From positions 1 to 57,665 of IMG/VR virus record IMGVR_UViG_3300008113_000328: a DNA stretch of 57,665 bases; one strand, 5' to 3'. The notes beneath the pieces are model-generated. The model was not told the DNA's origin and did not search any database. It worked only from the letters and a program-made list of their open reading frames with translations. Every line of letters starts with the position of its first letter. The first letter of the stretch is position 1. Made by a program: the position numbers and the translations under genes. Positions 10,172 through 28,064 of this stretch are shown here, piece by piece. Source of the DNA: a virus. Lineage: Duplodnaviria; Caudoviricetes.

Positions 10172-11636
10172 TAGTCATTGCTTTTTTAAAGTGTGAAACT
10201 GTATAGTCTTTCTTCTTAGTAACCGCCTTGTATATGTCCTGCTCAATGCCGCCCTTGGTGAACACCCAATACACGTTGTTCGCAGGTCTGTCCTTCGTAG
10301 TCATCCTGTCCTTGCTCTGCCAATAACTTGTTGCACTGAAGTCAATGTTGTAGTACACCAAGAACTCAGCTTGCTTGAGCGAGATACCCTCCCTGCCCGA
10401 GACAATCTGAAGAGCGATGTTCTTATCGGTGTCTTCAAAGACACTCAGTTCAGTTGTCAATGCATCACCGAATACCTGCTTCAATGCGTTGAGTTCTTCC
10501 TTGAACTTGTAGAAGATTCCAATCTTCTTGCCCTTGAATTTCCTCTTAATGAACTCAGCCTTGGTGGTATCTATTACCATCGAGTTGCCGCTTTCAAACT
10601 TGACCGTGCCCGAGTATATCTGATGCAGCTTCATCATCAACTTAACAGGAGTGTCAGCCAATATCACCTCATCTCTTCCCTCAATCACCAACTCTTTCTT
10701 GAGACGATTAGCTAATGAATAAGTTGACTGCCTCATCTCAACCTCAAGTATCTCCTCAGTAGTTGTGGTTACAAACCCTGCCTGAGCCTGAGTGTAGCTA
10801 ATGGTATATGGCTTCATCACCTCAAGTATATCCTCGCTACCCTTAGAGTAATCCTTAATGACCAATCCGTTGATTCTTTTCTCTCGAACCTTAACGTACT
10901 TGTCACAGAACCTGTAGAAGTTTTGGAACTCAGCGAATGGATTACCCGGTATGCCGTACACCTGATGGTACATCTGAGAATACGACTCAGGCGTTGGTGT
11001 CCCCGACAGAAGGATGACCATTGGCTTGTGCTTTCTGATTAGGTCTTTTACCATTAGCGCACGCTGACTTGGCTTAGGGAATGCGCCTATGCTATGCGCC
11101 TCATCACAGATAATCAAGTCCCATTTAATGCTTGAGTCAATCGTATGCAGACTCTCGTAGTTGATGATGTGCAAGTTGTAGGTTGGACTCAGCAAGTTAT
11201 AGTCCCGCTCAATAGATTCTATTGCCTTCTTCTTTGTTATGAACAGGACGTTGTTAGCATTCATCTTCTGAGAGATGCCAAGGCTTGTTAGTGTCTTGCC
11301 CGTGCGCACCTCCATCGCAAGATAAAGAAACCTATACTTTGAAAGTATGACAGAACCCTTGAGAATGATTTCTTTTTGATAATCCCTTAGCATTAACTTA
11401 CTCTCCCTTTCTACATCCTGCTCGTGCAGTTTCTTATAGTACTCACAACTGCGAAGTATTCGGTCGATAGTTTCCCTGTCTGTCTTGTGCTTGGGAACCT
11501 CAACTATTTTTACCTGCTTGCCCCTTCCTTCTTTTACCTGCTTGGTTGCTAACACTACTTGTTTCATAAGTTCGCACTCTTTCCACATATACAGGTTGCT
11601 TGTACCTGATACTCGTTCAATGATATCCTCTTTCAT
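10164..11636 (-). CDS. SF2 (SNF2-like) DEAH helicase
   Basis: LRDYQ Q-motif, MEVRTGKT, ICDEAH, LSGTP, GREGISL, QSKDR. The core starts at ATG 11393, after an ~80-aa N-terminal extension. Confidence 0.9.
   Translation of the reverse strand: MKEDIIERVSGTSNLYMWKECELMKQVVLATKQVKEGRGKQVKIVEVPKHKTDRETIDRILRSCEYYKKLHEQDVERESKLMLRDYQKEIILKGSVILSKYRFLYLAMEVRTGKTLTSLGISQKMNANNVLFITKKKAIESIERDYNLLSPTYNLHIINYESLHTIDSSIKWDLIICDEAHSIGAFPKPSQRALMVKDLIRKHKPMVILLSGTPTPESYSQMYHQVYGIPGNPFAEFQNFYRFCDKYVKVREKRINGLVIKDYSKGSEDILEVMKPYTISYTQAQAGFVTTTTEEILEVEMRQSTYSLANRLKKELVIEGRDEVILADTPVKLMMKLHQIYSGTVKFESGNSMVIDTTKAEFIKRKFKGKKIGIFYKFKEELNALKQVFGDALTTELSVFEDTDKNIALQIVSGREGISLKQAEFLVYYNIDFSATSYWQSKDRMTTKDRPANNVYWVFTKGGIEQDIYKAVTKKKDYTVSHFKKAMTND
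10429..10444. repeat. 16-bp near-palindrome inside the helicase CDS
   Basis: Exact GTGTCTTCAAAGACAC on + (antisense to the helicase mRNA). Confidence 0.85.
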
Positions 11637-14994: not shown

Positions 14995-15010
14995 GTGTCT
15001 TTAAAGACAC
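14995..15010. repeat. Perfect-palindrome variant GTGTCTTTAAAGACAC at the 3' end of the tRNA-like element
   Basis: Lies 3 nt past the discriminator base. Confidence 0.85.
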
Positions 15011-15013
15011 TTG

Positions 15014-15106
15014 TAGTCAGGACAGGACTCGAACCTGTAAAAAGGTAGGCTATGTACACTTGCCGTTTGAAGAACACTTGCAATTACCCATTTCTGCCAC
15101 CTGACT
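15014..15106 (-). tRNA. tRNA-like element / pseudo-tRNA with unassignable anticodon
   Basis: Acceptor AGTCAGG/CCTGACT+A, D-like arm TGGCAGAAATGGGTAATTGC and a perfect T arm ACAGG-TTCGAGT-CCTGT. The central region does not form a canonical anticodon arm. Confidence 0.6.
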
Positions 15107-16944: not shown

Positions 16945-17202
16945 TTATTTTAACTTGTTTATAACTTTCTCAGCGTACAGATACCACAGCGCAGACTCAA
17001 CCGCGTCAAGTACTTTGTGTTGTATCTCACGCTTGCCCTTCTTGATATAGAAGTCGTTTGATTTAAGCACCTGTATGATGAAGTCGTGTGTGTACATCAC
17101 AACCTCCGCGCAGTTTGGGTTCAGCTTTACATTGGGGTTCTCCTTCAGATATACCGCAATCGGGGTGACCCTTCCCGTCTTTACAAAGTCTTCAAATTTC
17201 AT
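16945..17202 (-). CDS. Hypothetical protein
   Basis: 85-aa ATG ORF coupled to the upstream gene. Confidence 0.6.
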   Translation of the reverse strand: MKFEDFVKTGRVTPIAVYLKENPNVKLNPNCAEVVMYTHDFIIQVLKSNDFYIKKGKREIQHKVLDAVESALWYLYAEKVINKLK

Positions 17203-17420
17203 CTTCTTGTTTTGTGTTTAAATGATAGTGATACAATCAAAGCACCCAAGACTACAATTATCATTAGCCAAAAGGTGTCGAGTAGAATTGCCTTGAGTAG
17301 GGACGATGGGCTTTCAGCCTCATCAATCAGGTTAAGCATAGCCCTCACTGAATAACCTGCAATAATGATGTAGATTAATCCGAGGAACAGAGCCTCGTAA
17401 ACTTTTAGAATCTTATTCAT
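17199..17420 (-). CDS. Small two-TM membrane protein
   Basis: Two hydrophobic stretches and a basic C-terminus. Confidence 0.6.
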   Translation of the reverse strand: MNKILKVYEALFLGLIYIIIAGYSVRAMLNLIDEAESPSSLLKAILLDTFWLMIIVVLGALIVSLSFKHKTRR

Positions 17421-17431
17421 TGTATATTGGT

Positions 17432-17836
17432 TTAGATGATTGACCTTCTTTCCACCTTGTATATCTCATATCCACCTGCCCTTCGCAAGCACTCGATGGC
17501 TTCCTCCTCAGTTATCACGGGCAATGTTTTGAACACAACCTTGTTAGTACTGAGCACAGCCTCGCCATTCTTTTTGTCGTTGTACAGGCTCATCGTTTTG
17601 CGATGCTCTTTAAAAAACACAGACAGCTGTTTAGTTGACAAGGGTTCAGGGGCAATCCAATTGTAGTGTCCCTTTGAAGAGGACACAATCCAATTGAGTT
17701 TGCGAAGTGTGACAAAGACCTTGGCATCAACCCTTGCTTTCTTGCGAATCTCATCGAGGTTGAATGTCTTTAAGCGTGAGCATTCTTTTAATAGGAGAGT
17801 CCATCTCTCCTCGGCTTGTTTACTTACTTGTCTCAT
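17432..17836 (-). CDS. Hypothetical protein (start revised to ATG 17836)
   Basis: A-rich leader AAATTAAATCTAATCAAATG; the longer ORF call would run through the ribozyme. Confidence 0.6.
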   Translation of the reverse strand: MRQVSKQAEERWTLLLKECSRLKTFNLDEIRKKARVDAKVFVTLRKLNWIVSSSKGHYNWIAPEPLSTKQLSVFFKEHRKTMSLYNDKKNGEAVLSTNKVVFKTLPVITEEEAIECLRRAGGYEIYKVERRSII

Positions 17837-17859
17837 TTGATTAGATTTAATTTGAGTTA

Positions 17860-17910
17860 CCCGTTTCATCCTTTCGGAATCATCAGCTGAGGCACACACC
17901 TCAGTACGGG
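17860..17910 (-). ncRNA. Type III hammerhead ribozyme HHR-1
   Basis: CCCG-UA^CUGAGG-UGUGUG-CCUCAG-CUGAUGA-UUCC-GAAA-GGAU-GAAA-CGGG; predicted cut 17905/17904. Confidence 0.92.
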
Positions 17911-17913
17911 GGA

Positions 17914-17929
17914 GTGTCTTTGAAGACAC
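17914..17929. repeat. 16-bp near-palindrome GTGTCTTCAAAGACAC (sense on -)
   Basis: Exact copy, immediately 5' of HHR-1. Confidence 0.9.
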
Positions 17930-17938
17930 CCCCTGTGA

Positions 17939-19000
17939 TTAGCTGTAGGTTATAATCTCTGACTGAGAGAACCATCCATTACAACCAAGGCAGTGGTAGT
18001 GGTTGAACCCATCGAACTCCAAGTCGTGGTAGCAGTCTATACAGATTGGCTTCTTGGACTCATCAGCAAAGTCAAAGTCAAACTCAGTAGTCTCGTGCTC
18101 GTAGTCATACTTGCTGTCGAATAGTTCATAGTTCTTGGCAGGGGTTGGCTTCTTCCAATGTTGCTCATAGCTTTTGTGCAACTTGGCTCCGCCCTCTATG
18201 TCCTTGCCGTTGAAGTATATCCAACAGGTGAGCACACGCTTCTTCATCTGAATCTGAATCTGCTTGCGCACATACCAACGTGGGTGACCCTCGAGTCTGT
18301 CCAACTCTTCAAGCGTCTCTGAGTTTACCTTGAACACATCCACGTCCACGTTGTACCCAATACCCTTCTTCTCAATTAGGTACGGCAGTCCGCTAACAAC
18401 GAGCGGATACCTGTCCTTGGTTTGTCCTGCGCCAAGGTATCCTGCTGAGCGCAGGTAGTGGTAGTAGTTTGAGTTGCCCTTCTTGAGCGTGCCGTACACC
18501 GCGACCAAGTGTTCCTCAAGCACGTTGTCCTTAGAGAACCATATGCCATCGCGCTGTGTCCACAGGTGCTTGTTGTAAATCTGATAGGTGCGGTTGCGTG
18601 TGTTGATGGTAACGAAACGGCAGGGGTGCTTCTCGAGTTCTGCCTTCCACGTGTGACGAGGTATCTCGCCAAGCGATATAGCCAACGCCTTGGTGTCTGA
18701 TATCTGCGCATTGCCTAGCCCGTAGATAGTTCCGTTCATCATAAGCCACTCCTTTGAGTTAGCACCACACTCAAATGGATGAGTGTTCTCCCTGTTAATT
18801 GCACCGATGGTAGCGTATCGGAAGTGAGCAATGAACGGACGCTTGGTATCTAGCTGTCTGTATTCCTTGGACTCGTGATAGGTAACCTCAAAGGTGTCGA
18901 GCCAAATGATGCCGAGTCCGTGAGGGTTGATACGCGCTGATGATTTGGCGACACTTACAGGCAGTCGCATACCCTTTTGTTTGATGATGATTACACACAT
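17939..19000 (-). CDS. Class II glutamine amidotransferase (Ntn) fused to a gamma-glutamylcyclotransferase domain and a C-terminal Zn ribbon
   Basis: MCVI N-terminal Cys, NPHGLG, HFRYATIG..NTHPF, MMNG, SDT; VAVYGTLKKG..LDRLEGHP; CIDC..CLGC. Start set at ATG 19000. Confidence 0.85.
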   Translation of the reverse strand: MCVIIIKQKGMRLPVSVAKSSARINPHGLGIIWLDTFEVTYHESKEYRQLDTKRPFIAHFRYATIGAINRENTHPFECGANSKEWLMMNGTIYGLGNAQISDTKALAISLGEIPRHTWKAELEKHPCRFVTINTRNRTYQIYNKHLWTQRDGIWFSKDNVLEEHLVAVYGTLKKGNSNYYHYLRSAGYLGAGQTKDRYPLVVSGLPYLIEKKGIGYNVDVDVFKVNSETLEELDRLEGHPRWYVRKQIQIQMKKRVLTCWIYFNGKDIEGGAKLHKSYEQHWKKPTPAKNYELFDSKYDYEHETTEFDFDFADESKKPICIDCYHDLEFDGFNHYHCLGCNGWFSQSEIITYS

Positions 19001-19059
19001 AGTGATTAGATTTATGGGCATCGTACTAAACGAAGAACCCTGATTGAACTGATTTTGCA

Positions 19060-19091
19060 CAAAGGTACGACAATCTTTAGACAATGTCAAG
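19060..19091 (-). promoter_or_regulatory. Repeated early promoter (-33 CTTG, 20-nt spacer, TACCTTTG)
   Basis: Homologous to the promoters at 21270 and 22809. Confidence 0.7.
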
Positions 19092-19099
19092 TAAAATCT

Positions 19100-19261
19100 T
19101 TATGACGAACTCCGTGCTATTGATAGCAGGTCAGCCCTATCTTGCAGTTCCTTCTTTAGTTTGAGTAGCATCGGCATTGTTTCCTCGTAGGTTATCTTGC
19201 CATCGTCAAACTGCTTTGATAGATTTCTCATATCGTCAATCATATCTTCCATTGTCCTCAT
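19100..19261 (-). CDS. Small hypothetical protein
   Basis: MRTMEDMIDDMRNLSK..., 53 aa, following the upstream stop. Confidence 0.5.
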   Translation of the reverse strand: MRTMEDMIDDMRNLSKQFDDGKITYEETMPMLLKLKKELQDRADLLSIARSSS

Positions 19262-19268
19262 CGCCTGC

Positions 19269-19517
19269 CTAATGTGTTGAGGTAGACACCCATTCCTTGG
19301 GGCTGACTTTCTCCTCCTTTGTTTCTCTGTAGCTGAGGTAGTCTGTGATGTAGTCATCAATTGCTTCGGTCTGACTGCCATAGTCACGCTCCCAAATCTT
19401 TCGCTTGATAGACAGGCCATCATTCTCCTCAGTGATATACACGCTGAATATCTCGCATTTGTTTCTTGAGATGGGGTCTACATATTCTTCGACCCTAAAG
19501 ATAAGTTCTGTTGTCAT
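19269..19517 (-). CDS. Hypothetical protein
   Basis: 82-aa ATG ORF with an A-rich leader. Confidence 0.6.
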   Translation of the reverse strand: MTTELIFRVEEYVDPISRNKCEIFSVYITEENDGLSIKRKIWERDYGSQTEAIDDYITDYLSYRETKEEKVSPKEWVSTSTH

Positions 19518-19534
19518 ATGAATTTTTGATTTAA

Positions 19535-19825
19535 TTAGTCAGGAAATTTCTCTTCGTCATTGTCATCCAAGTACATCTCCCACCCCGATGGCTCGTCAAA
19601 GAACAGGCGTAGCTGATGCATCTCTGTGTCAATGTCCTCGGCATCGTAGAAGTGTGAGGTCTCTGCCCAATCGAAGAACTCAGCACGCTCACCCCTCTCC
19701 ATTGCGTGGAAGAGGTGGCGAGCCTGTGCCTTTTGTCCGTTGGCAATACTCTCGATGATGTACTCGAAGTACTCTTCTGCGGAATCAAATCCGTAGTCTT
19801 GAATTAGTTTCTGTAGTGCTCCCAT
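19535..19825 (-). CDS. Acidic hypothetical protein
   Basis: 96-aa ATG ORF tightly packed in the operon. Confidence 0.6.
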   Translation of the reverse strand: MGALQKLIQDYGFDSAEEYFEYIIESIANGQKAQARHLFHAMERGERAEFFDWAETSHFYDAEDIDTEMHQLRLFFDEPSGWEMYLDDNDEEKFPD

Positions 19826-19827
19826 AG

Positions 19828-20208
19828 TTATCCAAATATAGTTTCGTTAAAGAATACTTGTTGAAGAATCACGTCAGCCGTAACGGCATCATCATTCTCG
19901 TTGATGGCATCCATCAGGTGACGAATGTCTGTGTTCTGTACTCGCTCGTGTACATCCTGCATCGTAATGGTTCGGGTGTACTCGCCCTCGTATCCAATGT
20001 CAACCAAGGTCAGGCTGTTGCCGTCTTTGAGGATTTGGATTAGCGTATCCTCGTGACAGGGTGACGTTAGTTTCTTAGACGCATCAACGTAGTCTTTGCG
20101 CTTGTAAGTTAGGTCGAGGTCATATCCACACTCTATGTATGCAAGTCCGTTGCACAGAGCGGTGTGGAATAGTTCCTCTGATTCTTGTGGGGTCAGTGTT
20201 ACTTTCAT
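19828..20208 (-). CDS. Hypothetical protein
   Basis: 126-aa ATG ORF. Confidence 0.65.
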   Translation of the reverse strand: MKVTLTPQESEELFHTALCNGLAYIECGYDLDLTYKRKDYVDASKKLTSPCHEDTLIQILKDGNSLTLVDIGYEGEYTRTITMQDVHERVQNTDIRHLMDAINENDDAVTADVILQQVFFNETIFG

Positions 20209-20213
20209 CGTGA

Positions 20214-20621
20214 TTAGTTTTTGGGTTTATAATTTCCTTCAGCGAGGTGGTCAATCTCATTGTTCACATCCTCGATTGTCCTGTCGATTGCATCGGTCAG
20301 CAGTTCGTATGCCTCGAGTTCACTGCACTCGTACTTGTCCATCACATCGCTCACGTGCCATAGGCTTTCAGCGTGGTAGCCGTTCCTTCTCAGTGCCTGT
20401 TTTATTTCCTTGTTGGTGTATAGGAAGCCCACGTCAATGCCGATTGGGTTGCCTCTCTCGAGTGCCTCATTCAACTGCTCCTGCGTTTCGATGAGTGACT
20501 CTGAGTCATCATCGTGCAGTTCATAGATTGACAGTGCGCCTGAACTTAGTAGTTCCTTTGCCGCGTAGGTTACGATGCACCACACGTAGCCATCGTCTGT
20601 TACTTTGATTTTGTGTGACAT
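20214..20621 (-). CDS. Hypothetical protein
   Basis: 135-aa ATG ORF 19 nt downstream of HHR-2. Confidence 0.65.
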   Translation of the reverse strand: MSHKIKVTDDGYVWCIVTYAAKELLSSGALSIYELHDDDSESLIETQEQLNEALERGNPIGIDVGFLYTNKEIKQALRRNGYHAESLWHVSDVMDKYECSELEAYELLTDAIDRTIEDVNNEIDHLAEGNYKPKN

Positions 20622-20640
20622 AAAATTGATTGTGTTAGTT

Positions 20641-20691
20641 TCCGTTTCATCCTTTTGGAATCATCAGTCGGGACACTCATCCCGATACGGA
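20641..20691 (-). ncRNA. Type III hammerhead ribozyme HHR-2
   Basis: UCCG-UA^UCGGGA-UGAGUG-UCCCGA-CUGAUGA-UUCC-AAAA-GGAU-GAAA-CGGA; cut 20686/20685. Confidence 0.92.
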
Positions 20692-20694
20692 GCA

Positions 20695-20710
20695 GTGTCT
20701 TTGAAGACAC
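20695..20710. repeat. 16-bp near-palindrome
   Basis: Exact copy 5' of HHR-2, extended by GCG/UGC pairing on the minus strand. Confidence 0.9.
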
Positions 20711-20727
20711 CGCCCCTAACACACACA

Positions 20728-21234
20728 TTAAACAACTAACACCATATCTTCCCTGAGGTTGAAGTACAAGGGCGTATCTATCCCGTCAAACAGCACGTTG
20801 TATCTGAACAGGGAGCCGTCCTCGAACTCAATACGATTAACCTTGCGCCCACTCTTCGCCTCAATCAACAGCCTTGCACCCTCGAGCACAGGGGTTGCTT
20901 CCCACTTTAGCTTTCTCTTCTCATTGTACAGGCGGTAAAGCGTGTAGCTATCCACTTTGTTGAACGACTCAGCCATCGGGCACAACCACTCGAGCGCATC
21001 CATTATCATACTCGGATAAAGACTATCCTTGTCCCAATCCTTTATGTACTGCTTGCATCCTTCCAATTCATACCACATATACTTATCGAACAGGGTTGGC
21101 CTGTCTTGATAGTAGACACTCACCCAATGCCCGTCATCTTCATTGCGGTAGATACTGACCACACCACCATCTTCCGTCAGGATATTAACCTCATCGTTGT
21201 TGAGGATTTCAACTGCGTAATTCATTTTAACCAT
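20728..21234 (-). CDS. Hypothetical protein
   Basis: 168-aa ATG ORF downstream of the promoter at 21270. Confidence 0.65.
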   Translation of the reverse strand: MVKMNYAVEILNNDEVNILTEDGGVVSIYRNEDDGHWVSVYYQDRPTLFDKYMWYELEGCKQYIKDWDKDSLYPSMIMDALEWLCPMAESFNKVDSYTLYRLYNEKRKLKWEATPVLEGARLLIEAKSGRKVNRIEFEDGSLFRYNVLFDGIDTPLYFNLREDMVLVV

Positions 21235-21269
21235 TGTGATAATTGTTAGAAGTTTGAACTAATTTTGCG

Positions 21270-21315
21270 CAAAGATACGACAACGAATGAACGATGTCAA
21301 ATAAAGTTATCAACA
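21270..21315 (-). promoter_or_regulatory. Repeated early promoter TGTTGATAAC-TTTA-TTTG-N20-TATCTTTG
   Basis: Canonical Bacteroidota -33/-7 geometry plus an upstream DnaA-box-like TTATCAACA. Confidence 0.75.
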
Positions 21316-21471
21316 GGGGTACTCCCCGTACACCTTGAAGTAACACTCTTCGCAGTCAGCGTCAGTGCCTTCGGTGTTGTCGATACACTCTTGCAGTAGT
21401 ATCTCTTTGTCAAATTCTGATGCCGCCCATATGCCCACGGCAAATACAACGGCAAGGATTACTTTCTTCAT
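21310..21471 (-). CDS. Small membrane-anchored/secreted Cys-containing peptide (53 aa, not in ORF track)
   Basis: MKKVILAVVFAVGIWAASEFDKEILLQECIDNTEGTDADCEECYFKVYGEYPC; ATGA overlap with the upstream stop. Confidence 0.55.
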   Translation of the reverse strand: MKKVILAVVFAVGIWAASEFDKEILLQECIDNTEGTDADCEECYFKVYGEYPC

Positions 21472-21656
21472 TGCTGTGCTGTTTTAGTTGGTGATTGAAC
21501 TGCCTTTGATGTGAGGTAGATTAGCTTGTCAACGAGGTCGAACTCAGCCTGTGTCACAGGCTCAGGTAGGAACAGCGCGTCCAATACGACTTTGTCCATA
21601 TGAACGAAGTCAATCTTTGTCTCATCGAATGAGAACGTGATGGTTACTTGTGTCAT
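21468..21656 (-). CDS. Hypothetical protein (start revised to ATG 21656)
   Basis: MTQVTITFSF...; TAATG coupling to the upstream lipoprotein gene. Confidence 0.55.
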   Translation of the reverse strand: MTQVTITFSFDETKIDFVHMDKVVLDALFLPEPVTQAEFDLVDKLIYLTSKAVQSPTKTAQQ

Positions 21657-21838
21657 TAGCTTGGGAAGTTTAGGGTTCTGTAGTTCTGTTTGCAACCCTT
21701 GAAGTTGGGGTTGTGGTCGTGACGGAAGTTTCCGTGGCTCCGACTCTTTGATTGCTTTGTTCTGTAGGCTTGGTGCTGTGAACCACAGCTTTGGAACAGG
21801 ACAGCGATTGCTGTCAGGATTGTGATTGCTTTTCTCAT
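21656..21838 (-). CDS. Small lipoprotein
   Basis: MRKAITILTAIAVLFQS-C lipobox-type signal peptide. Confidence 0.6.
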   Translation of the reverse strand: MRKAITILTAIAVLFQSCGSQHQAYRTKQSKSRSHGNFRHDHNPNFKGCKQNYRTLNFPS

Positions 21839-22032
21839 TTGCGTGGAAGTATTTCAAAGTAAGATGGTTTGTAAAACTTGTGATTCACCCAAGGGTAGAC
21901 AGCCTCTGTCCATTCTCTGTCGTTGATACGCTCGTGGATAGACGGGTAGCTTAACACCTTGGTCTTGATGAGGGTCACAAGCATTGGTGCGCCCTCGTAA
22001 CGGAACCTGCCGTAGTAAGTTGGTGTGCTCAT
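21835..22032 (-). CDS. Hypothetical protein
   Basis: 65-aa ORF coupled on both sides. Confidence 0.55.
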   Translation of the reverse strand: MSTPTYYGRFRYEGAPMLVTLIKTKVLSYPSIHERINDREWTEAVYPWVNHKFYKPSYFEILPRK

Positions 22033-22346
22033 TATTGTGGGGTTTGGATTACTTGATAGTTCTCGATTAGAAAGTCGTTGTACTCGAACTTGCCTGTCTT
22101 GATGAACTCAAGAATCTCAGGCTCGTAGGCGTACTCAATGACACACTCCTCGAAGTACAGGGTGTACATCGCCAAGCCCGTGTCATCGTCCTGACCCTCG
22201 TAGACAATCGTGCCCTCGTCCTGTAACTCTAAGAACAGGACACGTGCCGCGTTGTCGTTCATCTTTTCGATACTCACAAAGCCTTCGCTCTGTGCCTTTG
22301 ATTGCAGTGCAATGAACATCATTGCCGAAATGAATAGTGCTTTCAT
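22032..22346 (-). CDS. Secreted acidic protein
   Basis: Signal peptide MKALFISAMMFIALQSKA/Q with Bacteroidota-type Gln at +1; directly downstream of HHR-3. Confidence 0.6.
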   Translation of the reverse strand: MKALFISAMMFIALQSKAQSEGFVSIEKMNDNAARVLFLELQDEGTIVYEGQDDDTGLAMYTLYFEECVIEYAYEPEILEFIKTGKFEYNDFLIENYQVIQTPQ

Positions 22347-22370
22347 TTGTGATTAGATTAAATTAGATTT

Positions 22371-22419
22371 CCGTTTCGTTCTTTTGAACTCATCAGGTAG
22401 GACACTCATCCTACTACGG
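22371..22419 (-). ncRNA. Type III hammerhead ribozyme HHR-3
   Basis: CCG-UA^GUAGGA-UGAGUG-UCCUAC-CUGAUGA-GUUC-AAAA-GAAC-GAAA-CGG; cut 22415/22414. Confidence 0.93.
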
Positions 22420-22421
22420 GA

Positions 22422-22437
22422 GTGTCTTTGAAGACAC
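22422..22437. repeat. 16-bp near-palindrome
   Basis: Exact copy 5' of HHR-3. Confidence 0.9.
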
Positions 22438-22451
22438 TCACGCTTTGCTCA

Positions 22452-22592
22452 TCAGCTTGCTTGAAGTACCGACTCAATTACCTTCATCATCCCATATCCC
22501 TCAGCCTTCTCGTTGGAGTTACCCAAGTCGATTAGTTCTTGTGCCTGCTCTTCTAGTTCCGCAAGTAGCTTGCTTAATTTTTGATTCTTCAT
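22452..22592 (-). CDS. Small hypothetical protein (46 aa, not in ORF track)
   Basis: MKNQKLSKLLAELEEQAQELIDLGNSNEKAEGYGMMKVIESVLQAS fills the gap between the upstream stop and the hairpin. Confidence 0.55.
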   Translation of the reverse strand: MKNQKLSKLLAELEEQAQELIDLGNSNEKAEGYGMMKVIESVLQAS

Positions 22593-22597
22593 AGTGA

Positions 22598-22777
22598 TTA
22601 GTGTTTAGGGTTTGACTCGAATGTGACTGCGACAATAGACAGCAGTGAAAGAAGACCGCACAGGTATCCTAACCATACCGCTACGCCAATGTTTAAGGTG
22701 TGACCGATTGAAATAACAACCATTGAAAGGGCTGTCATTACTGCGCAAACAAGCGCGATGTGTTTTGTGTGTGACAT
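22598..22777 (-). CDS. Small two-TM membrane protein (start revised)
   Basis: MSHTKHIALVCAVMTAL...; downstream of the promoter at 22809. Confidence 0.55.
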   Translation of the reverse strand: MSHTKHIALVCAVMTALSMVVISIGHTLNIGVAVWLGYLCGLLSLLSIVAVTFESNPKH

Positions 22778-22808
22778 AGATTTAAGTATTAAATGAACTA
22801 ATTTTCGA

Positions 22809-22854
22809 CAAAGGTACGACATTGAATAGACAATGTCAAATAAAGTTATGAACA
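22809..22854 (-). promoter_or_regulatory. Repeated early promoter TGTTCATAAC-TTTA-TTTG-N20-TACCTTTG
   Basis: Homolog of the 21270 and 19060 promoters. Confidence 0.75.
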
Positions 22855-22893
22855 CCCTGTTGTTTGTGGCTTCAGGGTGCTCATAGCTGTGCA

Positions 22894-23151
22894 CTACCAC
22901 TGCACAGGTCGTGGTGCTGTTGCGTGGTACTTTGAGCCACTCGCCTCAGGGTTCAGGCTCATATCGTGCTGTGCATTCTCAAGCCACTGCGCAAACTCAA
23001 GCATAAGCATTGCAAAGGCAGTGTCGTTGTGGCACTCAAGACGCACGACAAGTACGTCTGAGTCGTTAATAATTTGGTGTCCGTCAACCTTGCGCTCGTT
23101 GATGAAAGCGTGAAACATAGGTGACCAATCGAGGAAATAAGTACGTGTCAT
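22894..23151 (-). CDS. Hypothetical protein
   Basis: 85-aa ATG ORF downstream of HHR-4. Confidence 0.55.
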   Translation of the reverse strand: MTRTYFLDWSPMFHAFINERKVDGHQIINDSDVLVVRLECHNDTAFAMLMLEFAQWLENAQHDMSLNPEASGSKYHATAPRPVQW

Positions 23152-23179
23152 TTGTGTGACTGAATTAAGTTATGTGTGT

Positions 23180-23233
23180 TCCTGTTTCGTCCTTCGTGGA
23201 CTCATCAGCACAGGCAACTACCTGTGGACAGGA
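23180..23233 (-). ncRNA. Type III hammerhead ribozyme HHR-4
   Basis: UCCUG-UC^CACAGG-UAGUUG-CCUGUG-CUGAUGA-GUCC-ACGAA-GGAC-GAAA-CAGGA; GUC site, cut 23227/23226. Confidence 0.95.
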
Positions 23234-23239
23234 GGGCAG

Positions 23240-23255
23240 GTGTCTTTGAAGACAC
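23240..23255. repeat. 16-bp near-palindrome
   Basis: Exact copy 5' of HHR-4. Confidence 0.9.
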
Positions 23256-23268
23256 CGCCCCTGTGCGC

Positions 23269-23493
23269 TCAATTGAGCGTCATCAAAAAGTACTTTGAGC
23301 GACCGCGCCACTCACCATACTGCTTGTCAATTTCGTAGGCGAATACGCTCAGTACAAGTGTGCGCTCAGCCCCGTACATAGTCACGTACTGCGACTGCTC
23401 TTCGCCCTCGTTAGTCCAAATTTCTACGCCCTCACCAAGGCGTACTACCTGTTCGTCTGTGATTTCAGTCAGATTGAATTTTTCAAAGTTCAT
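23269..23493 (-). CDS. Hypothetical protein flanked by HHR-5 and HHR-4
   Basis: 74-aa ATG ORF with an A/C-rich leader. Confidence 0.6.
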   Translation of the reverse strand: MNFEKFNLTEITDEQVVRLGEGVEIWTNEGEEQSQYVTMYGAERTLVLSVFAYEIDKQYGEWRGRSKYFLMTLN

Positions 23494-23516
23494 AACGTGT
23501 GTGTTTTTAAGGTTTG

Positions 23517-23565
23517 CCGTTTCGTCCTTTTGGACTCATCAGACAGGGCACTCACCCTGTTACGG
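23517..23565 (-). ncRNA. Type III hammerhead ribozyme HHR-5
   Basis: CCG-UA^ACAGGG-UGAGUG-CCCUGU-CUGAUGA-GUCC-AAAA-GGAC-GAAA-CGG; cut 23561/23560. Confidence 0.95.
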
Positions 23566-23573
23566 GAGGGGCA

Positions 23574-23589
23574 GTGTCCTTGAAGACAC
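23574..23589. repeat. 16-bp near-palindrome, one-base variant
   Basis: GTGTCCTTGAAGACAC (A-U changed to G-U on the minus strand), 5' of HHR-5. Confidence 0.85.
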
Positions 23590-23603
23590 CACCCCTGCTT
23601 CCC

Positions 23604-24494
23604 TTAGTACCTCGGGAGGTACTGACGGATGCTCTCAGACACCGCGCCCGTGTCGATGAACTTTTGAAAGTCAACCGCAAGGTTCAGCACCTTCATCGCC
23701 TTTGTAGTGTCCCCGTTGTACATTAGAACTACAAGCGGTGAAATGTGCTTCAGGAACGTCTTTGTAGTAGTGTTCGGGGCTGTGATTGCCACGTTCACCA
23801 CCTCGTACATTAACTCGTAGCGTCTCATCAACTGCTTCACGCTCTCGAATCGGCTCACCACACGAAACTCGAGCACGTTGCCCTTGTTTAAGGCCACTTG
23901 ATATTTGTGGTGATAGCGCAAGTGCTGTCCAATGTCCATAGCTGTATGCATACGCAGGTTGTGGTTGCAAAAGTCATTTTTGAGGCGGTTGCGGAACAGC
24001 GCGTAAATAATGCCCGAATACTTGCGCACGGCTGTGTTGATTTCATCGCCTGTCATCCCTTCGACACCGATAGTCATATGACCACCGCAACGGCTGTCAG
24101 ACGGGCTGTATTGGTCTTCGATAATGTAACGGGCTTTGTGCATCATATCGTACACCTTTGTGCGCCACTGACCCTGTGGGAGCAAAGGCAGGATGTGGCT
24201 CACAGCCTCGTAGCCGCACGATGCATCACGCTCGAAGCCGCAAAACAACTCGTACTCACGCACCGAATTGCGGTGCAATTGGTTCTTTTCAACCTCAATG
24301 CCGATAGTGAAACGGCTTGCAATAGCCCCGTTGATGAGGGCAAAATTGTCGCGCTGTTGACGTGGCTTGAGTCCTGCAATGTCTATGCGGTGACGTGTCA
24401 CGCTCAATTTGTTTGGTGCAGGCTTGTAGTGGTATGAGTGAACTACGCCACGAGCGTGCTCGCCTGTCAATCTGTATTGGATACCTGTGTTCAT
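23604..24494 (-). CDS. Putative amidoligase (COOH-NH2 ligase family)
   Basis: RFTIGIEVE, RDASCGYEAVS, CGGHMTIG, VLEFRV motif order; co-occurs with the GATase-GGCT gene. Confidence 0.7.
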   Translation of the reverse strand: MNTGIQYRLTGEHARGVVHSYHYKPAPNKLSVTRHRIDIAGLKPRQQRDNFALINGAIASRFTIGIEVEKNQLHRNSVREYELFCGFERDASCGYEAVSHILPLLPQGQWRTKVYDMMHKARYIIEDQYSPSDSRCGGHMTIGVEGMTGDEINTAVRKYSGIIYALFRNRLKNDFCNHNLRMHTAMDIGQHLRYHHKYQVALNKGNVLEFRVVSRFESVKQLMRRYELMYEVVNVAITAPNTTTKTFLKHISPLVVLMYNGDTTKAMKVLNLAVDFQKFIDTGAVSESIRQYLPRY

Positions 24495-24518
24495 TGTGTG
24501 TGTGGTTTTAAGTGGGCA

Positions 24519-24534
24519 GTGTCTTTGAAGACAC
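24519..24534. repeat. 16-bp near-palindrome in an extended hairpin, no ribozyme
   Basis: GGGCGGTGTCTTCAAAGACACTGCCC on the minus strand, intergenic. Confidence 0.9.
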
Positions 24535-24552
24535 CGCCCTGTTTATGATTGT

Positions 24553-25206
24553 TTATTGGTTAACTGCGTATTTCACTTTGGTGGTGAACAGGCGAATAGC
24601 CTCTAACACTGCGTCCTTGTCAGCAGTGGTGTGAATAGCCCCGTCTGTATCGATTCGCACAGCTATGTTAGCCCCTTCGGGGTTCTTGAAAGTGAATGAA
24701 AATACCACCTGTGGACGCACCTCAATTGCAGGCTCTTCGCCTTCGCCTTCGCCCTCTTCACCGCCTTCGCCTGTTCCACTGCTCTCTTGTCCCTGTTCCA
24801 AAGCCTTAGCGAACTTATTGAGAGCCTCAATACTGCGAACAGGCTTCTCGCCTGTGCTCTCAGCCTCATCGCACTTTGCGTTGAACGTCTCAATCACCTC
24901 AGCAGGTAGTTCACCTGCCTTGACTAGCTTGCAGAAAAACGACTTCTTGTATCCAAACACCTTTTCGCCAAGGGCTTCCTTAGTGAACGTCACGCCCTCC
25001 TCTTCGCACAGGGCTTTACCCTCTGCGCTGTTCACCCAAGCCCAAGCCTGTGCCGACAGCTTTGCCATACTCAGAGTGTTCTCAAACGTCTTCTTCTCAG
25101 CCTTAGCCATAGTGCGCTGTAAGGCTGTCACCTGTTGCAGGTTCATACCTGCCTTAACCTGTGGATTGCTGAGGAACGATGCCTCAATTGATAGTAAATT
25201 GCTCAT
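24553..25206 (-). CDS. Hypothetical protein, first gene of the early operon
   Basis: 217-aa ATG ORF with a Gly/Glu linker. Confidence 0.7.
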   Translation of the reverse strand: MSNLLSIEASFLSNPQVKAGMNLQQVTALQRTMAKAEKKTFENTLSMAKLSAQAWAWVNSAEGKALCEEEGVTFTKEALGEKVFGYKKSFFCKLVKAGELPAEVIETFNAKCDEAESTGEKPVRSIEALNKFAKALEQGQESSGTGEGGEEGEGEGEEPAIEVRPQVVFSFTFKNPEGANIAVRIDTDGAIHTTADKDAVLEAIRLFTTKVKYAVNQ

Positions 25207-26447: not shown

Positions 26448-28064
26448 ATGATAGACAATCAAGGTTACTCTCCCAAGGACTTACGTTTTGGTTCTGATGG
26501 GCGAGACAAATTAATTAGGGGTGTCACTAAGATGGCCCGGGCGGTAAAGAGTACACTTGGGCCTAACGGCAACACTGTACTGATAGAGTCGCCAACTCAC
26601 ACACACGGTATTACGGTAACGAAGGATGGTGTCACGGTAGCCAAGGCGGTTGACCTGATGGACCCTACTGAGAACCTTGCGGTTCGGATGATGAAGGAGG
26701 CGGCAGACCGCACGGCTACATCAGCGGGTGATGGTACGACAACGGCCATTGTGTTGACTGAGGCTCTTGTGCTTGGTGGTGTTGAGCATATTACTGAGAA
26801 GCATAATCGGACGCAGGTGTTGCGTCATATGGTGGAGATATCGGACAAGGTGGTGGAGAAGTTAAAGAAGAAGAGCAAGAAGCTATCGAGTTCAATGCTT
26901 CTTGACGTGGCTACTATCTCATCTAACAATGACAAGGAGATTGGCAGTATCATCGCAAAGGTTTATAAGGAGGTTGGCAAGAATGGTATTGTAACTGTTG
27001 AGAAGTCACAGACATCTGAGACGTATTCGGAGACGACCTTGGGTTTGAAGTTTGACCGTGGGTATTTGTCTCCGTTGTTTATCAACAACCACAAGAAGGA
27101 CGAGTGTGTGTTTGAGGATGTGATGGTCTTGGTTGCTGATATGGAGATATCGAACATCTTGCAGATTGAGAACGTGCTCAAGCCAATTATCACTGAGGGG
27201 AAGAAGTTATTGATTATCTCTCCCTGCAATATGAATGTGGTAAACACGCTTGCGGCAAACGTGATGAAGGGTAATCTGAAAGTATGTGTTGTGCCACCGC
27301 CCAACTTTGGATACAAGCAGCACGAGCTGATGCAGGACATTGCTTTGAGTGTTGGTGCTACATACTTTAGTGAGAAGACGGGTGACGACTTGAGCCTTAT
27401 TAATTATGGTTGTCTTGGTCACGCGGCTAAGGTGATTGTGTCGAAGGACAAGACGGTGATACTGAAGTCTGAGGCTCGTGTAAATGCTGATGCTATAGCT
27501 GAGCGAGTGAGTGAGCTATGGGCTGCTCACGCGGTAGCTAAGAAGAAGTCTGACAAAGATTTCTTGTTGGAGCGTATTGCGTCATTGACGGGTGGCATCG
27601 GTGTCATCTTTGTTGGTGGGAATACTGACCTTGAGCAGAAGGAGTTGTATGACCGTGTGGATGATGCGGTATGTGCTGTTCGTTCTGCACTTGAGGAGGG
27701 CATTGTGCCGGGGGCAGGTAAAGCTTTGTTTGAGTTTAATCTGAATGAGTTCTTATCAGACAATTCTACCAATGAGTACAAGGCTGCCATTAAGATTATG
27801 CAGTCGGCACTTGAGGCTCCGCTCACTCAGATTCTTGAGAACGCGGGACTGTGTATGACCAATGTGTATGGTGGTAGAATGAAAGAGGGTGAGGGGTATA
27901 ATGTGAAGACGGGGGAGATTGGTGACCTCATTGAGATGGGTGTTATTGACCCGACTAAGGTTACACGTAGTGCTCTTCAGAACGCGGTGAGTGTGGCGAC
28001 AACTATCCTTAGCACAAATGCAATCATTACGATGGCTCGTAGTTATGAGGAGGCCGCGCTATGA
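26448..28064 (+). CDS. groEL: Chaperonin GroEL
   Basis: TLGPNG, VTKDGVTVAK, AGDGTTTA, FDRGYLSP, EEGIVPGAG, GVIDPTKVTRSALQNA. Confidence 0.97.
   Translation: MIDNQGYSPKDLRFGSDGRDKLIRGVTKMARAVKSTLGPNGNTVLIESPTHTHGITVTKDGVTVAKAVDLMDPTENLAVRMMKEAADRTATSAGDGTTTAIVLTEALVLGGVEHITEKHNRTQVLRHMVEISDKVVEKLKKKSKKLSSSMLLDVATISSNNDKEIGSIIAKVYKEVGKNGIVTVEKSQTSETYSETTLGLKFDRGYLSPLFINNHKKDECVFEDVMVLVADMEISNILQIENVLKPIITEGKKLLIISPCNMNVVNTLAANVMKGNLKVCVVPPPNFGYKQHELMQDIALSVGATYFSEKTGDDLSLINYGCLGHAAKVIVSKDKTVILKSEARVNADAIAERVSELWAAHAVAKKKSDKDFLLERIASLTGGIGVIFVGGNTDLEQKELYDRVDDAVCAVRSALEEGIVPGAGKALFEFNLNEFLSDNSTNEYKAAIKIMQSALEAPLTQILENAGLCMTNVYGGRMKEGEGYNVKTGEIGDLIEMGVIDPTKVTRSALQNAVSVATTILSTNAIITMARSYEEAAL

What the first reader, a model, noticed from the sequence alone, without database searches (positions are those of the whole stretch)
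17860..23589. Five hammerhead ribozymes punctuate the phage early operon, each in a stop-hairpin-ribozyme-leader cassette
Seen: five intergenic minus-strand elements (17860-17910, 20641-20691, 22371-22419, 23180-23233, 23517-23565). Each has the complete hammerhead core (GUA/GUC cleavage triplet, CUGAUGA, GAAA), a 6-bp stem I with a 6-nt U..G loop, and a stem II with an A-rich loop. Stem I sequences all differ but pair perfectly (CUGAGG, UCGGGA, GUAGGA, CACAGG, ACAGGG), which is strong covariation. All five are in the sense of the flanking genes, in the order upstream stop, GTGTCTTCAAAGACAC hairpin, ribozyme, ~20-30 nt A-rich leader, ATG. Established: type III hammerheads self-cleave, leaving a 2',3'-cyclic phosphate and a 5'-OH, and loop I-loop II contacts give physiological activity. 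Inference: the phage processes its early polycistron without protein, functionally like the RNase III sites of the T7 early region. Upstream pieces get a protective 3' hairpin, and downstream pieces get a structured 5'-OH end that resists 5'-monophosphate-dependent decay. I know of no characterised phage system with such an array.
Basis: partly seen in the sequence, partly recalled or inferred. Interest (0 to 1): 0.95.

Follow-up and report, generated by a model that had tools for sequence, protein, structure and literature searches.

The report
Five hammerhead ribozymes between phage genes
Five self-cutting RNA elements (hammerhead ribozymes), each placed directly after a hairpin, sit between early genes of an uncultured phage of Flavobacterium-like bacteria; they look real and conserved, but clusters of this kind in phages were already described in 2011.

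Summary
Rfam RF00008 matches all five, but below its curated cut-off. A model built from them finds no sixth copy.

Relatives give strong support. In 80 related loci there are 142 hammerheads, all in gene sense. 97% of stem cells pair, and 116 of 117 distinct sequences keep the whole core. Against the closest relative, every difference inside stems I and II is a compensatory pair change.

A stable hairpin abuts stem III in most cases. Hammerheads rarely occur without it, though the hairpin often occurs alone.

Cutting early transcripts between genes is the best reading, but I found no RNA data.

The novelty claim fails. Perreault et al. 2011 described, tested in vitro, and interpreted in the same way clustered hammerheads flanking prophage genes. 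Element E4 is 45/47 identical to the hammerhead of LUZ24-like Pseudomonas phages.

New here: the hairpin-hammerhead module, its spread through a ~60 kb phage family, its position at the edges of a hypervariable gene region, and strain-level insertions/deletions bounded by it.

The parts
23517..23565 (-). Hammerhead E1 (type III). GUA triplet, cut before 23560. Stem I ACAGGG/CCCUGU, stem II GUCC/GGAC, stem III 4 bp.
   Evidence: 38.8 bits; 80.3 bits
23567..23596 (-). Hairpin in front of E1 (12 bp, core GTGTCTTCAAGGACAC). It ends 1 nt before stem III.
23180..23233 (-). Hammerhead E2. GUC triplet, cut before 23226. Stem I CACAGG/CCUGUG, 5-nt loop II, stem III 5-6 bp.
   Evidence: 23.8 bits, stem I skipped by the Rfam alignment; 68.8 bits; identical in relative L125
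23234..23260 (-). Hairpin in front of E2. It abuts stem III.
22371..22419 (-). Hammerhead E3. GUA triplet, cut before 22414. Stem I GUAGGA/UCCUAC, stem II GUUC/GAAC.
   Evidence: 37.2 bits; 78.0 bits; two compensatory pair changes in stem II against L125
22420..22439 (-). Hairpin in front of E3. It abuts stem III with no gap.
20641..20691 (-). Hammerhead E4. GUA triplet, cut before 20685. Stem I UCGGGA/UCCCGA. Stem II starts with a U10.1/U11.1 mismatch. 45 of 47 nt are identical to the hammerhead of LUZ24-like Pseudomonas phages.
   Evidence: 35.4 bits; 79.7 bits
20692..20713 (-). Hairpin in front of E4. It abuts stem III. An extended form could compete for the 5' strand of stem III.
17860..17910 (-). 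Hammerhead E5. GUA triplet, cut before 17904. Stem I CUGAGG/CCUCAG. U10.1/U11.1 mismatch. The hammerhead fold appears in the MFE structure.
   Evidence: 29.5 bits; 77.8 bits
17911..17932 (-). Hairpin in front of E5. It abuts stem III.
24519..24534 (-). The same hairpin core between the 217-aa and 296-aa genes, followed directly by leader and ATG with no hammerhead (hairpin-only junction).
22809..22839 (-). Promoter-like element (TTGACAT...TGTCGTAnCTTTG), one of three near-identical copies inside the region.
   Evidence: The reading as a Bacteroidota -33/-7 promoter is recalled, not tested.
21270..21300 (-). Promoter-like element, second copy.
19060..19090 (-). Promoter-like element, third copy, in front of the GGACT-like gene.
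17939..19000 (-). Gene for a 353-aa protein with a gamma-glutamyl cyclotransferase (GGACT) domain, directly upstream of E5. Used as the anchor to fetch 80 related loci.
23604..24494 (-). Conserved 296-aa gene of unknown function, directly upstream of E1. In relatives a hammerhead follows its homolog in 58 of 69 loci.

Best explanation
The five elements are functional type III hammerhead ribozymes. They are transcribed as part of the minus-strand early messages of a ~58 kb phage related to phages of Flavobacteriia. Each sits in an intercistronic gap and cuts the transcript there.

The upstream piece ends in a stable hairpin followed by only 5-7 nt and a 2',3'-cyclic phosphate. The downstream piece begins with a 5'-OH, the folded stem I/II body of the ribozyme, and a 20-29 nt A-rich leader in front of the ATG.

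The hairpin and the ribozyme work as one module. The hairpin abuts stem III, where it can stack on the short 4-6 bp helix, and it becomes the 3' end of the upstream message.

Shown here: identity, conservation, orientation, and the module architecture. Inferred: transcription, cleavage in vivo, and any effect on stability or translation.
For: - **Complete core and three helices in all five**. Rfam RF00008 is the top match for each, and the other 8 matches are noise at E >= 0.87.
- **Relatives.** 80 loci were fetched with the neighbouring GGACT-like protein (46-78% identity). They hold 142 hammerheads, 142 of 142 on the gene strand. Counts per locus: 0 in 8, 1 in 33, 2 in 18, 3 in 11, 4 in 10.
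- **Covariation.** 97.0% of 1746 cells pair and 533 cells change on both sides. Stem I is 99.9% paired with all six pairs covarying. 0 of 500 shuffles reach this, and slid controls give 33-52% pairing.
- **Core.** 116 of 117 distinct sequences keep every strictly conserved position. Variation is confined to N7 (U 96, C 17, A 4) and H17 (C 75, A 38, U 4, never G), which is what the hammerhead tolerates.
- **Orthologous comparison with L125.** Flanking DNA is about 70-77% identical, yet the E2 cassette is 96.8% identical. Every difference inside stems I and II is a compensatory pair change: 2 pairs in E3, 1 in E4, 2 in E5. Core and loops are unchanged.
- **Module.** 87% of 125 contexts have a hairpin of <= -10 kcal/mol in the 42 nt upstream, against 8% of random windows. 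In 100 of 113 contexts the hairpin ends with no gap before stem III.
- **Spacing.** The median distance is 34 nt from the upstream stop to stem III and 25 nt from stem III to the next ATG-ORF.
- **Dependence on the hairpin.** At syntenic junctions a hammerhead without a hairpin is rare (4 of 62, 0 of 34, 0 of 8). A hairpin without a hammerhead is common.
- **Folding.** The hammerhead fold is within 0-3.3 kcal/mol of the MFE in all five, before any tertiary stabilisation.
- **Published precedent.** Clustered prophage hammerheads cleave in vitro and in E. coli, and a U10.1-U11.1 mismatch supports activity (PMC3088659).
Against: - No RNA evidence of any kind. Transcription of the minus strand is inferred only from gene orientation and promoter-like motifs.
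- None of the five reaches Rfam's gathering score.
- E4 and E5 carry the U10.1/U11.1 mismatch at the most conserved stem II pair, which may slow them.
- In the MFE folds of E1, E3 and E4, an extension of the upstream hairpin takes part of the 5' strand of stem III. E2's MFE pairs it elsewhere but ties in energy with the hammerhead fold. Only E5 shows the hammerhead fold outright.
- Three internal promoter-like elements mean several genes may not need cutting to be expressed separately.
- Most gene junctions in the same block have no ribozyme, so this is not a general way of resolving the polycistron.
- The relatives' hammerheads were found with a model built from these five plus one Pseudomonas-phage copy. 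Degenerate copies are therefore under-sampled, and the alignments are fitted to the model, which favours pairing counts.
Confidence: 0.72

Rival explanations
1. The selected function is to remodel the 5' end of the downstream gene, not to separate cistrons. The ribozyme removes whatever lies upstream and gives each gene the same short, 5'-OH, structured leader. This would be a natural counterpart of synthetic ribozyme insulators. It would affect translation or escape from 5'-end-dependent decay.
For: - In the cultured Flavobacterium phage elemoF, the single hammerhead (38.9 bits) lies 13 nt before the ATG of the first gene of the early block. No co-directional gene is annotated upstream of it in the stretch viewed.
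- In LUZ24-like Pseudomonas phages the hammerhead overlaps the start codon of the first rightward gene.
- The leader length is tightly kept: 86 of 127 contexts have an ATG-ORF start 11-40 nt after stem III.
- Perreault et al. report a halovirus hammerhead 13 nt upstream of the first early gene, with the mapped 5' end within 3 nt of the cut.
- In RNA viruses of fungi and plants, self-cleavage in a 5' UTR enables translation (PMC13725137, abstract only).
Against: - In this phage family 117 of 127 hammerheads follow an upstream ORF stop by 21-60 nt, so the dominant position is intercistronic.
- The near-obligatory upstream hairpin is not explained by a purely downstream function.
- The two readings do not exclude each other.
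Confidence: 0.35
2. The hairpin-hammerhead units act mainly as portable gene-boundary repeats. They are short conserved patches at which recombination swaps, inserts or deletes early-gene cassettes. Ribozyme activity keeps each new junction expressible.
For: - The genes between the conserved 296-aa gene (69 of 80 loci) and the GGACT-like gene (80 of 80) have homologs in only 0-13 of 80 relatives.
- The length of that stretch ranges from 91 to 4882 nt.
- Hammerheads sit at its edges: after the 296-aa homolog in 58 of 69 loci and after the GGACT-like gene in 34 of 79. They are found in 0 of 73, 63, 70 and 29 loci after four conserved downstream genes, and 0 of 13 after the 135-aa gene homolog.
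- L125 lacks exactly E1 plus the 74-aa gene.
- Contigs from DNA runs join 23233 to 23569 (1 run) and 23566 to 22422 with the same 5 letters between (3 runs of 3 studies). These are deletions bounded by cassettes.
Against: - The joints come from metagenome contigs laid at 85% likeness with short sides (20-30 nt). The tool warns that such joints often come from other organisms or repeats.
- Breakpoints fall in intergenic DNA for any mechanism. I did not compare ribozyme junctions with other junctions in a controlled way.
- The strict conservation of the catalytic core is not needed for a DNA-level homology patch.
Confidence: 0.2
3. Cleavage is conditional. An extended form of the upstream hairpin sequesters the 5' strand of stem III, so the ribozyme cuts only in a fraction of transcripts or under certain conditions. 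This would tune the ratio of long to short messages.
For: - The MFE structures of E1, E3 and E4 pair part of the CCGU strand into an extension of the hairpin. E2's MFE pairs it with a segment upstream of the hairpin.
- The hammerhead fold costs 0-3.3 kcal/mol more.
- Perreault et al. raise regulated cleavage for phage hammerheads.
Against: - The energy differences are within the error of the model, which ignores the tertiary loop contacts and the core.
- E5, and in energy E2, favour the hammerhead fold.
- I did not test whether the competing pairing is conserved in relatives.
Confidence: 0.1
4. The elements are inactive relics or purely structural RNA or DNA repeats that only resemble hammerheads.
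For: - Scores are below Rfam's gathering cut-off.
- Two of the five have the stem II mismatch.
- There is no RNA evidence.
Against: - 116 of 117 distinct relatives keep all strictly conserved catalytic nucleotides, while N7, H17 and the stems vary freely.
- All are in gene sense.
- Orthologs change only by compensatory pairs.
- The PaP3-phage hammerhead, from the group that carries E4's near-twin, is listed among active variants in PMC3088659 (Figure S6 legend; the figure itself was not seen).
Confidence: 0.04

Closest known systems
Clustered hammerhead ribozymes in prophages (Perreault et al. 2011, PLoS Comput Biol, PMC3088659)
   Same: Several hammerheads in one orientation flank single genes or short gene blocks of phage origin, and the identity of the flanked genes is not constant. 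The authors proposed processing of long phage transcripts into operon- or gene-length mRNAs. They showed cleavage in vitro for three arrangements and in E. coli for one.
   Different: Those are prophages of Clostridium, Azorhizobium and Agrobacterium with mixed hammerhead types. The tested arrangements are described as tandem or triple. In the passages I read, no abutting upstream hairpin is described (figures and supplements not seen). Here there are five type III copies in an uncultured phage with no integrase or lysogeny gene among the 20 proteins I annotated, each joined to a hairpin. Nothing has been tested at the bench.
Hammerhead of LUZ24-like (PaP3-group) Pseudomonas phages
   Same: E4 matches it at 95.7% over 47 nt in 66 Pseudomonas phage records. 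They share stem I, loops, and the U10.1/U11.1 stem II. The PaP3 hammerhead is listed among active core variants in PMC3088659.
   Different: It is a single copy per genome. It lies directly in front of the first rightward gene, with the start codon inside stem III. It has no GC hairpin in front. The host belongs to another phylum. Shared ancestry versus convergence under tight constraints is not resolved.
Rfam RF00008, Hammerhead_3
   Same: Same topology and core. It is the best Rfam family for all five.
   Different: Scores of 23.8-38.8 bits lie below the 48.5-bit gathering cut-off. The causes are a short stem III, a 6-nt loop I treated as an insertion, and a 4-nt loop II (alignments).
RNase III processing sites of the T7 early region (recalled, not checked here)
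   Same: The early polycistron is cut between genes, and the upstream products end in a hairpin.
   Different: A host protein enzyme cuts within the hairpin and leaves 5'-phosphate and 3'-OH ends. Here the RNA would cut itself next to the hairpin and leave 5'-OH and a cyclic phosphate.
Halovirus HF1/HF2 hammerhead variant (HHphage, PMC3088659)
   Same: A hammerhead lies a few nucleotides upstream of an early gene of a lytic virus. A mapped transcript 5' end lies within 3 nt of the cut.
   Different: It is a single copy in an archaeal virus, with a variant architecture and a demand for high salt or Mg2+.
Synthetic ribozyme insulators such as RiboJ (recalled, not checked here)
   Same: A hammerhead plus a hairpin is used to cut off upstream RNA and standardise the 5' leader of a gene.
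   Different: They are engineered, and the hairpin lies downstream of the ribozyme.

Membership tests
Hammerhead ribozyme, type III | Conserved core C3 U4 G5 A6 N7 G8 A9 and G12 A13 A14 | tested here: met
   CUGAUGA and GAAA are present in 5 of 5. In relatives 116 of 117 distinct sequences keep all of these positions.
Hammerhead ribozyme, type III | A15.1-U16.1 pair and cleavage-site nucleotide H17 (not G) | tested here: met
   GUA in 4 and GUC in 1 of 5, with A15.1 and U16.1 in all. In relatives H17 is C 75, A 38, U 4, G 0.
Hammerhead ribozyme, type III | Three helices around the core, stems I and II closed by loops, open ends at stem III | tested here: met
   for the window copies. In one search, 97% of cells pair, 12 of 15 pairs change on both sides, and slid controls give 33-52%.
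Hammerhead ribozyme, type III | G10.1-C11.1 pair at the base of stem II (most conserved stem pair) | tested here: inconclusive
   G-C in E1-E3 and U/U in E4 and E5. In relatives position 11.1 is C 87, U 24, A 6. PMC3088659 section 8 says a U-U mismatch occurs in natural active hammerheads.
Hammerhead ribozyme, type III | Score at or above Rfam RF00008 gathering threshold (48.5 bits) | tested here: not met
   23.8-38.8 bits. No match at gathering in the window. This is a curated cut-off, not a biological feature.
Hammerhead ribozyme, type III | Site-specific self-cleavage giving 2',3'-cyclic phosphate and 5'-OH | not testable with these tools
   No RNA run was listed. Only DNA contigs were laid.
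Hammerhead ribozyme, type III | Loop I-loop II tertiary contact giving activity at low Mg2+ | not tested
   Loop I (UGNGUR-like) and the A-rich loop II are conserved, which fits a contact. No 3D test was done.
Clustered phage hammerheads that process polycistronic mRNA (Perreault 2011) | Two or more hammerheads in one orientation flanking genes of a phage transcription unit | tested here: met
   Five in gene sense within 5.7 kb. Relatives carry 0-5.
Clustered phage hammerheads that process polycistronic mRNA (Perreault 2011) | Cleavage of the long transcript into gene-length pieces | not testable with these tools
   Needs transcription and cleavage assays or end-specific RNA-seq.

The most novel reading that the evidence does not exclude
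The hairpin-plus-hammerhead unit is a portable gene-boundary module with two roles. At the RNA level it ends one message in a protected hairpin and starts the next with a standard 5'-OH leader, so any gene dropped between two units is expressed independently of its neighbours. At the DNA level the conserved ~70 nt units serve as the joints at which early-gene cassettes are gained, lost and swapped. If so, self-cleaving RNA would be the enabling device for the hypervariable host-takeover region of a large family of ~60 kb phages of Flavobacteriia, and perhaps of other phages where the same layout appears with Shine-Dalgarno leaders.
Probability: 0.2. Interest if true: 0.75.

Novelty: new member of a known kind. 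Interest (0 to 1): 0.45.

Why it matters
What hammerheads do in bacteria and phages is still open. The 2019 review PMC6765202 says processing of polycistronic transcripts has been suggested but needs more work.

This phage family offers an unusually clean comparative data set:
- Well over a hundred sense-oriented copies at defined gene junctions.
- A partner hairpin that the ribozyme almost never lacks.
- Three natural states of the same junction: hairpin plus ribozyme, hairpin only, or neither.
- Strain-level indels bounded by the units.

This gives concrete, cheap experiments. There are also cultured entry points: Elemovirus phages of Flavobacterium and LUZ24-like phages of Pseudomonas, each with one copy.

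It also shows that Rfam's Hammerhead_3 cut-off misses this common phage subclass, so phage annotations under-report it.

Tried and rejected
- **RNA evidence.** No RNA holder was listed for window 17000-24600. The single read-laying run could only use DNA contigs, so expression and cleavage ends could not be examined.
- **A sixth copy.** Rejected. With filters off, the model finds only the five (68.8-80.3 bits); the next best hit scores 15.3 bits. The CTGATGA...GAAAC matches at 8818 and 12735 have no stems.
- **Other ribozyme classes in the window.** None reach Rfam gathering.
- **Rfam on two GenBank loci.** At E <= 1 it found no hammerhead in the Clew-1 locus or in MW202828.1. My model scores the Clew-1 copy at 76.9 bits, so that blank reflects Rfam's filters. 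MW202828.1 also has none with my model.
- **blastn with the E3 cassette.** No match among 50,697 phage records.
- **Chance or DNA-repeat explanation.** Rejected on core invariance, compensatory changes and strand bias.
- **Horizontal transfer between this phage and Pseudomonas phages (45/47 identity).** Considered, not claimed. About 34 of the 47 positions are core, loops or stem II, which are near-constant across this subclass. Stem I sequences such as UCGGGA and UCGAGA recur in unrelated contigs.
- **The hairpin as a plain intrinsic terminator.** Unlikely at the ribozyme sites, because no T run follows. The copy at 44250 does have one.
- **Controlled test of breakpoint enrichment at cassettes versus other junctions.** Planned but not run, for lack of reliable gene calls among the very small ORFs.
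- **21 of 127 hammerheads lying inside an ATG-ORF of >= 35 aa on the same strand.** I took these to be spurious ORFs but did not check them.
- **Literature.** Searches for hammerhead with LUZ24 and with Bruynoghevirus returned nothing. Hammerhead ribozyme with Flavobacterium and phage returned two irrelevant papers. Searches gave no paper describing a hairpin-hammerhead cassette or arrays in phages of Bacteroidota. These searches cover only the held library. The supplements of PMC3088659 (alignments, Figures S1-S8) were not seen and may contain related sequences or the PaP3 structure.

Full report
**What is there.**

The window is a single IMG/VR virus record of 57,665 bases, estimated 95% complete. 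On its minus strand, between about 26.0 kb and 8.4 kb, lies a block of mostly small genes of unknown function.

- a 4-6 bp stem III
- a GUA (four copies) or GUC (E2) triplet
- a 6-bp stem I closed by a 6-nt loop
- CUGAUGA
- a 4-bp stem II with a 4-5 nt A-rich loop
- GAAA

Rfam's Hammerhead_3 is the best family for all five, at 38.8, 37.2, 35.4, 29.5 and 23.8 bits. All fall below the 48.5-bit gathering score, so the default Rfam scan of the window reports nothing. The alignments show why: stem III is short, loop I is treated as an insertion, and loop II is shorter than the model's. For E2 the aligner skipped stem I altogether.

The core pattern occurs 8 times against 0.15 expected. A covariance model built from the five plus one Pseudomonas-phage copy, run with filters off, finds the five at 68.8-80.3 bits and nothing else above 15.3 bits. 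There is no sixth copy.

**Is it more than chance?**

The relatives answer this. I used the 353-aa GGACT-domain protein encoded just upstream of E5 as a probe. It fetched 80 related loci from IMG/VR, 46-78% identical, mostly from contigs of about 60 kb. The model finds 142 hammerheads in them, every one on the strand of the gene.

Counts per locus (match plus or minus 7 kb) are 0 in 8, 1 in 33, 2 in 18, 3 in 11 and 4 in 10.

Over the 117 distinct sequences:
- 97.0% of 1746 cells form standard pairs.
- 533 cells change on both sides.
- Stem I is 99.9% paired, with all six pairs covarying.
- No shuffle of 500 reaches these values.
- Sliding the partners gives 33-52% pairing.

The catalytic nucleotides are invariant in 116 of 117. 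Variation is confined to N7 (U 96, C 17, A 4) and H17 (C 75, A 38, U 4, never G), exactly the positions a hammerhead tolerates.

Two caveats apply. The hits were found with a model of these same elements, and the alignment is fitted to that model.

A cleaner test is the closest relative, L125. Its flanking DNA is about 70-77% identical to the window, and it has hammerheads syntenic to E2, E3, E4 and E5.
- The E2 cassette is 96.8% identical.
- Every difference inside stems I and II is a compensatory pair change: two pairs in stem II of E3, one in stem I of E4, two in stem I of E5.
- Core and loops are untouched.

This is the signature of selection for the fold, not for the sequence.

**The hairpin.**

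The 16-mer GTGTCTTCAARGACAC (at most 2 mismatches) has 12 sites in the window against 0.09 matches expected.
- Five sites precede the ribozymes.
- One (24519) sits in a gene junction with no ribozyme.
- One (44250) forms a classical terminator with a T run.
- One adjoins a tRNA.
- One lies at 25400.
- Three lie inside ORFs.

Even so, the coupling to the ribozyme is tight. In 125 distinct contexts from relatives, 87% have a hairpin of -10 kcal/mol or better in the 42 nt upstream, against 8% of random windows. In 100 of 113 the hairpin ends with no gap before stem III. 82 carry the GTGTC...GACAC arms and 37 carry another hairpin, so it is the structure and position that are kept.

- 65 of 98 contexts have such a hairpin, against 50 of 490 controls.
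- 24 of 98 have Shine-Dalgarno-like leaders, so the layout is not limited to phages of Bacteroidota.

At three syntenic junctions in relatives the states are as follows:

| Junction | Hairpin + ribozyme | Hairpin only | Neither | Ribozyme without hairpin |
|---|---|---|---|---|
| After the 296-aa gene | 58 | 5 | 2 | 4 |
| After the GGACT-like gene | 34 | 22 | 23 | 0 |
| After the 217-aa gene | 8 | 20 | 37 | 0 |

The ribozyme therefore seems to be an addition to a hairpin site, and it seems to need the hairpin.

**Layout and transcription units.**

The median distance is 34 nt from the upstream stop to stem III, and 25 nt from stem III to the next ATG-ORF of 35 aa or more. 86 of 127 contexts fall in the 11-40 nt range. 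In the window the leaders are 20-29 nt and A-rich.

The block is not one polycistron. Three near-identical promoter-like elements (TTGACAT...TGTCGTAnCTTTG) lie at 22809-22839, 21270-21300 and 19060-19090 on the same strand. Their resemblance to the Bacteroidota -33/-7 consensus is my recollection, not a test. In the three units these define, a ribozyme follows the first one or two genes. Most junctions in the block have no ribozyme.

**How it most likely works.**

The ribozymes are transcribed within the early messages and cut them. The upstream fragment ends in the hairpin plus the 4-6 nt of the stem III strand and H17, with a cyclic phosphate. Such a short tail behind a strong stem is a poor substrate for 3' exonucleases (established knowledge, recalled).

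The downstream fragment starts with a 5'-OH and the folded ribozyme body, followed by a standard leader.

The zero-gap position would let the hairpin stack on the short stem III and help it form. The hammerhead fold lies within 0-3.3 kcal/mol of the MFE for all five. In E1, E3 and E4 the MFE extends the hairpin into part of the stem III strand, and only E5 shows the hammerhead fold outright. This leaves room for slow or conditional cleavage.

E4 and E5 carry a U10.1/U11.1 mismatch. Perreault et al. note that this occurs in natural hammerheads and supports more activity than other mispairs.

None of the RNA-level steps could be observed. No RNA run was listed.

**Where the ribozymes sit in the genome.**

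The genes between the conserved 296-aa gene (homologs in 69 of 80 loci) and the GGACT-like gene (80 of 80) have homologs in only 0-13 of 80 relatives. That stretch varies from 91 to 4882 nt; the window, at 4604 nt, is near the top.

Hammerheads mark the edges of this variable region:
- after the 296-aa homolog in 58 of 69 loci
- after the GGACT-like gene in 34 of 79
- in 0 of 73, 63, 70 and 29 after four conserved downstream genes, and 0 of 13 after the 135-aa gene homolog

L125 lacks exactly E1 plus the 74-aa gene. DNA contigs from public runs show joints from 23233 to 23569 (one run). They also show joints from 23566 to 22422 with the same five letters between, in three runs of three studies. 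These are deletions whose ends lie in the hairpin/ribozyme repeats.

The joints come from contigs with short sides and are only a hint. Still, they suggest the units also serve as joints for cassette turnover.

**Relation to what is known.**

The array is not unprecedented. Perreault et al. [quoted passage not shown]
- They proposed processing into operon- or gene-length mRNAs.
- They showed the expected products for three tandem arrangements in vitro and for one in E. coli.
- They tested a PaP3 phage hammerhead.

E4 is 95.7% identical over 47 nt to the hammerhead of 66 PaP3/LUZ24-like Pseudomonas phage records. There it lies in front of the first rightward gene, with the ATG inside stem III.

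The phage itself belongs with phages of Flavobacteriia. Its primase/helicase matches MW202828.1 at 79% and Flavobacterium Elemovirus phages at 42%. Elemovirus elemoF carries one hammerhead 13 nt before its first early gene.

Whole-record searches of 26 records gave 0-5 copies; two other records also have five.

The 2019 review PMC6765202 states that the purpose of such ribozymes remains to be defined. My searches found no paper on a hairpin-hammerhead module or on arrays in phages of Bacteroidota. Those searches cover only the held library, and the supplements of the 2011 paper were not seen.

**Verdict.**

This is a new member of a known kind. What it adds is the obligatory abutting hairpin, the family-wide distribution, and the link to a hypervariable gene region.

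Noticed in passing
window 10429-10444 (+), 31007-31022 (+), 37145-37160 (+): The exact 16-mer GTGTCTTCAAAGACAC also occurs inside ORFs. The copy at 10429 is antisense to its gene. An RNA 3'-end role does not explain this. It may be a DNA-level or protein-binding motif of the phage.
   Followed up: partly
window 44250-44265 (+): The same hairpin, with a GC-extended stem and a following T run, forms a canonical intrinsic-terminator-like site after the 481-aa gene (42785-44230).
   Followed up: no
window 19060-19090, 21270-21300, 22809-22839 (-): Three near-identical promoter-like elements lie inside the early block. A fixed-spacing pattern finds exactly three matches against 0 expected. Each is followed about 45-60 nt later by an ATG.
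   Followed up: partly
window 15014-15106 (-): A tRNA-like gene (RF00005, 37.3 bits in a local search; missed by the whole-window scan) has a 32-nt insertion. ARAGORN calls it with an unusual 4-letter anticodon 'tcaa'. A hairpin copy (14995-15010) lies directly beside it.
   Followed up: partly
L049, L055, L081, L084, L086, L160 (IMG/VR loci): Some hammerheads in other contigs are preceded not by a GC hairpin but by a conserved ATCCTRAGYAAGAT...AAACTG motif. In L049 a TAnnTTTG-like promoter motif lies just upstream, so that ribozyme may sit at the very 5' end of a primary transcript.
   Followed up: no
relatives, e.g. L016:2873, L026:9883: 6 of 117 distinct hammerheads have an A10.1/A11.1 mismatch at the base of stem II (CUGAUGA-AGUC...GACA-GAAA). 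This is a variant I did not find discussed in the passages read.
   Followed up: no
window 26448-28064 (+): The phage encodes a GroEL-type chaperonin (Cpn60_TCP1, E 1e-56). The relative MW202828.1 also carries groEL and a co-chaperonin.
   Followed up: no
window 20630-20727 (-): In the E4 cassette, the UGUGUGUGUU run just after the upstream stop can pair with AACUAACACA in the leader, closing the whole cassette in the predicted fold. This may be chance.
   Followed up: no
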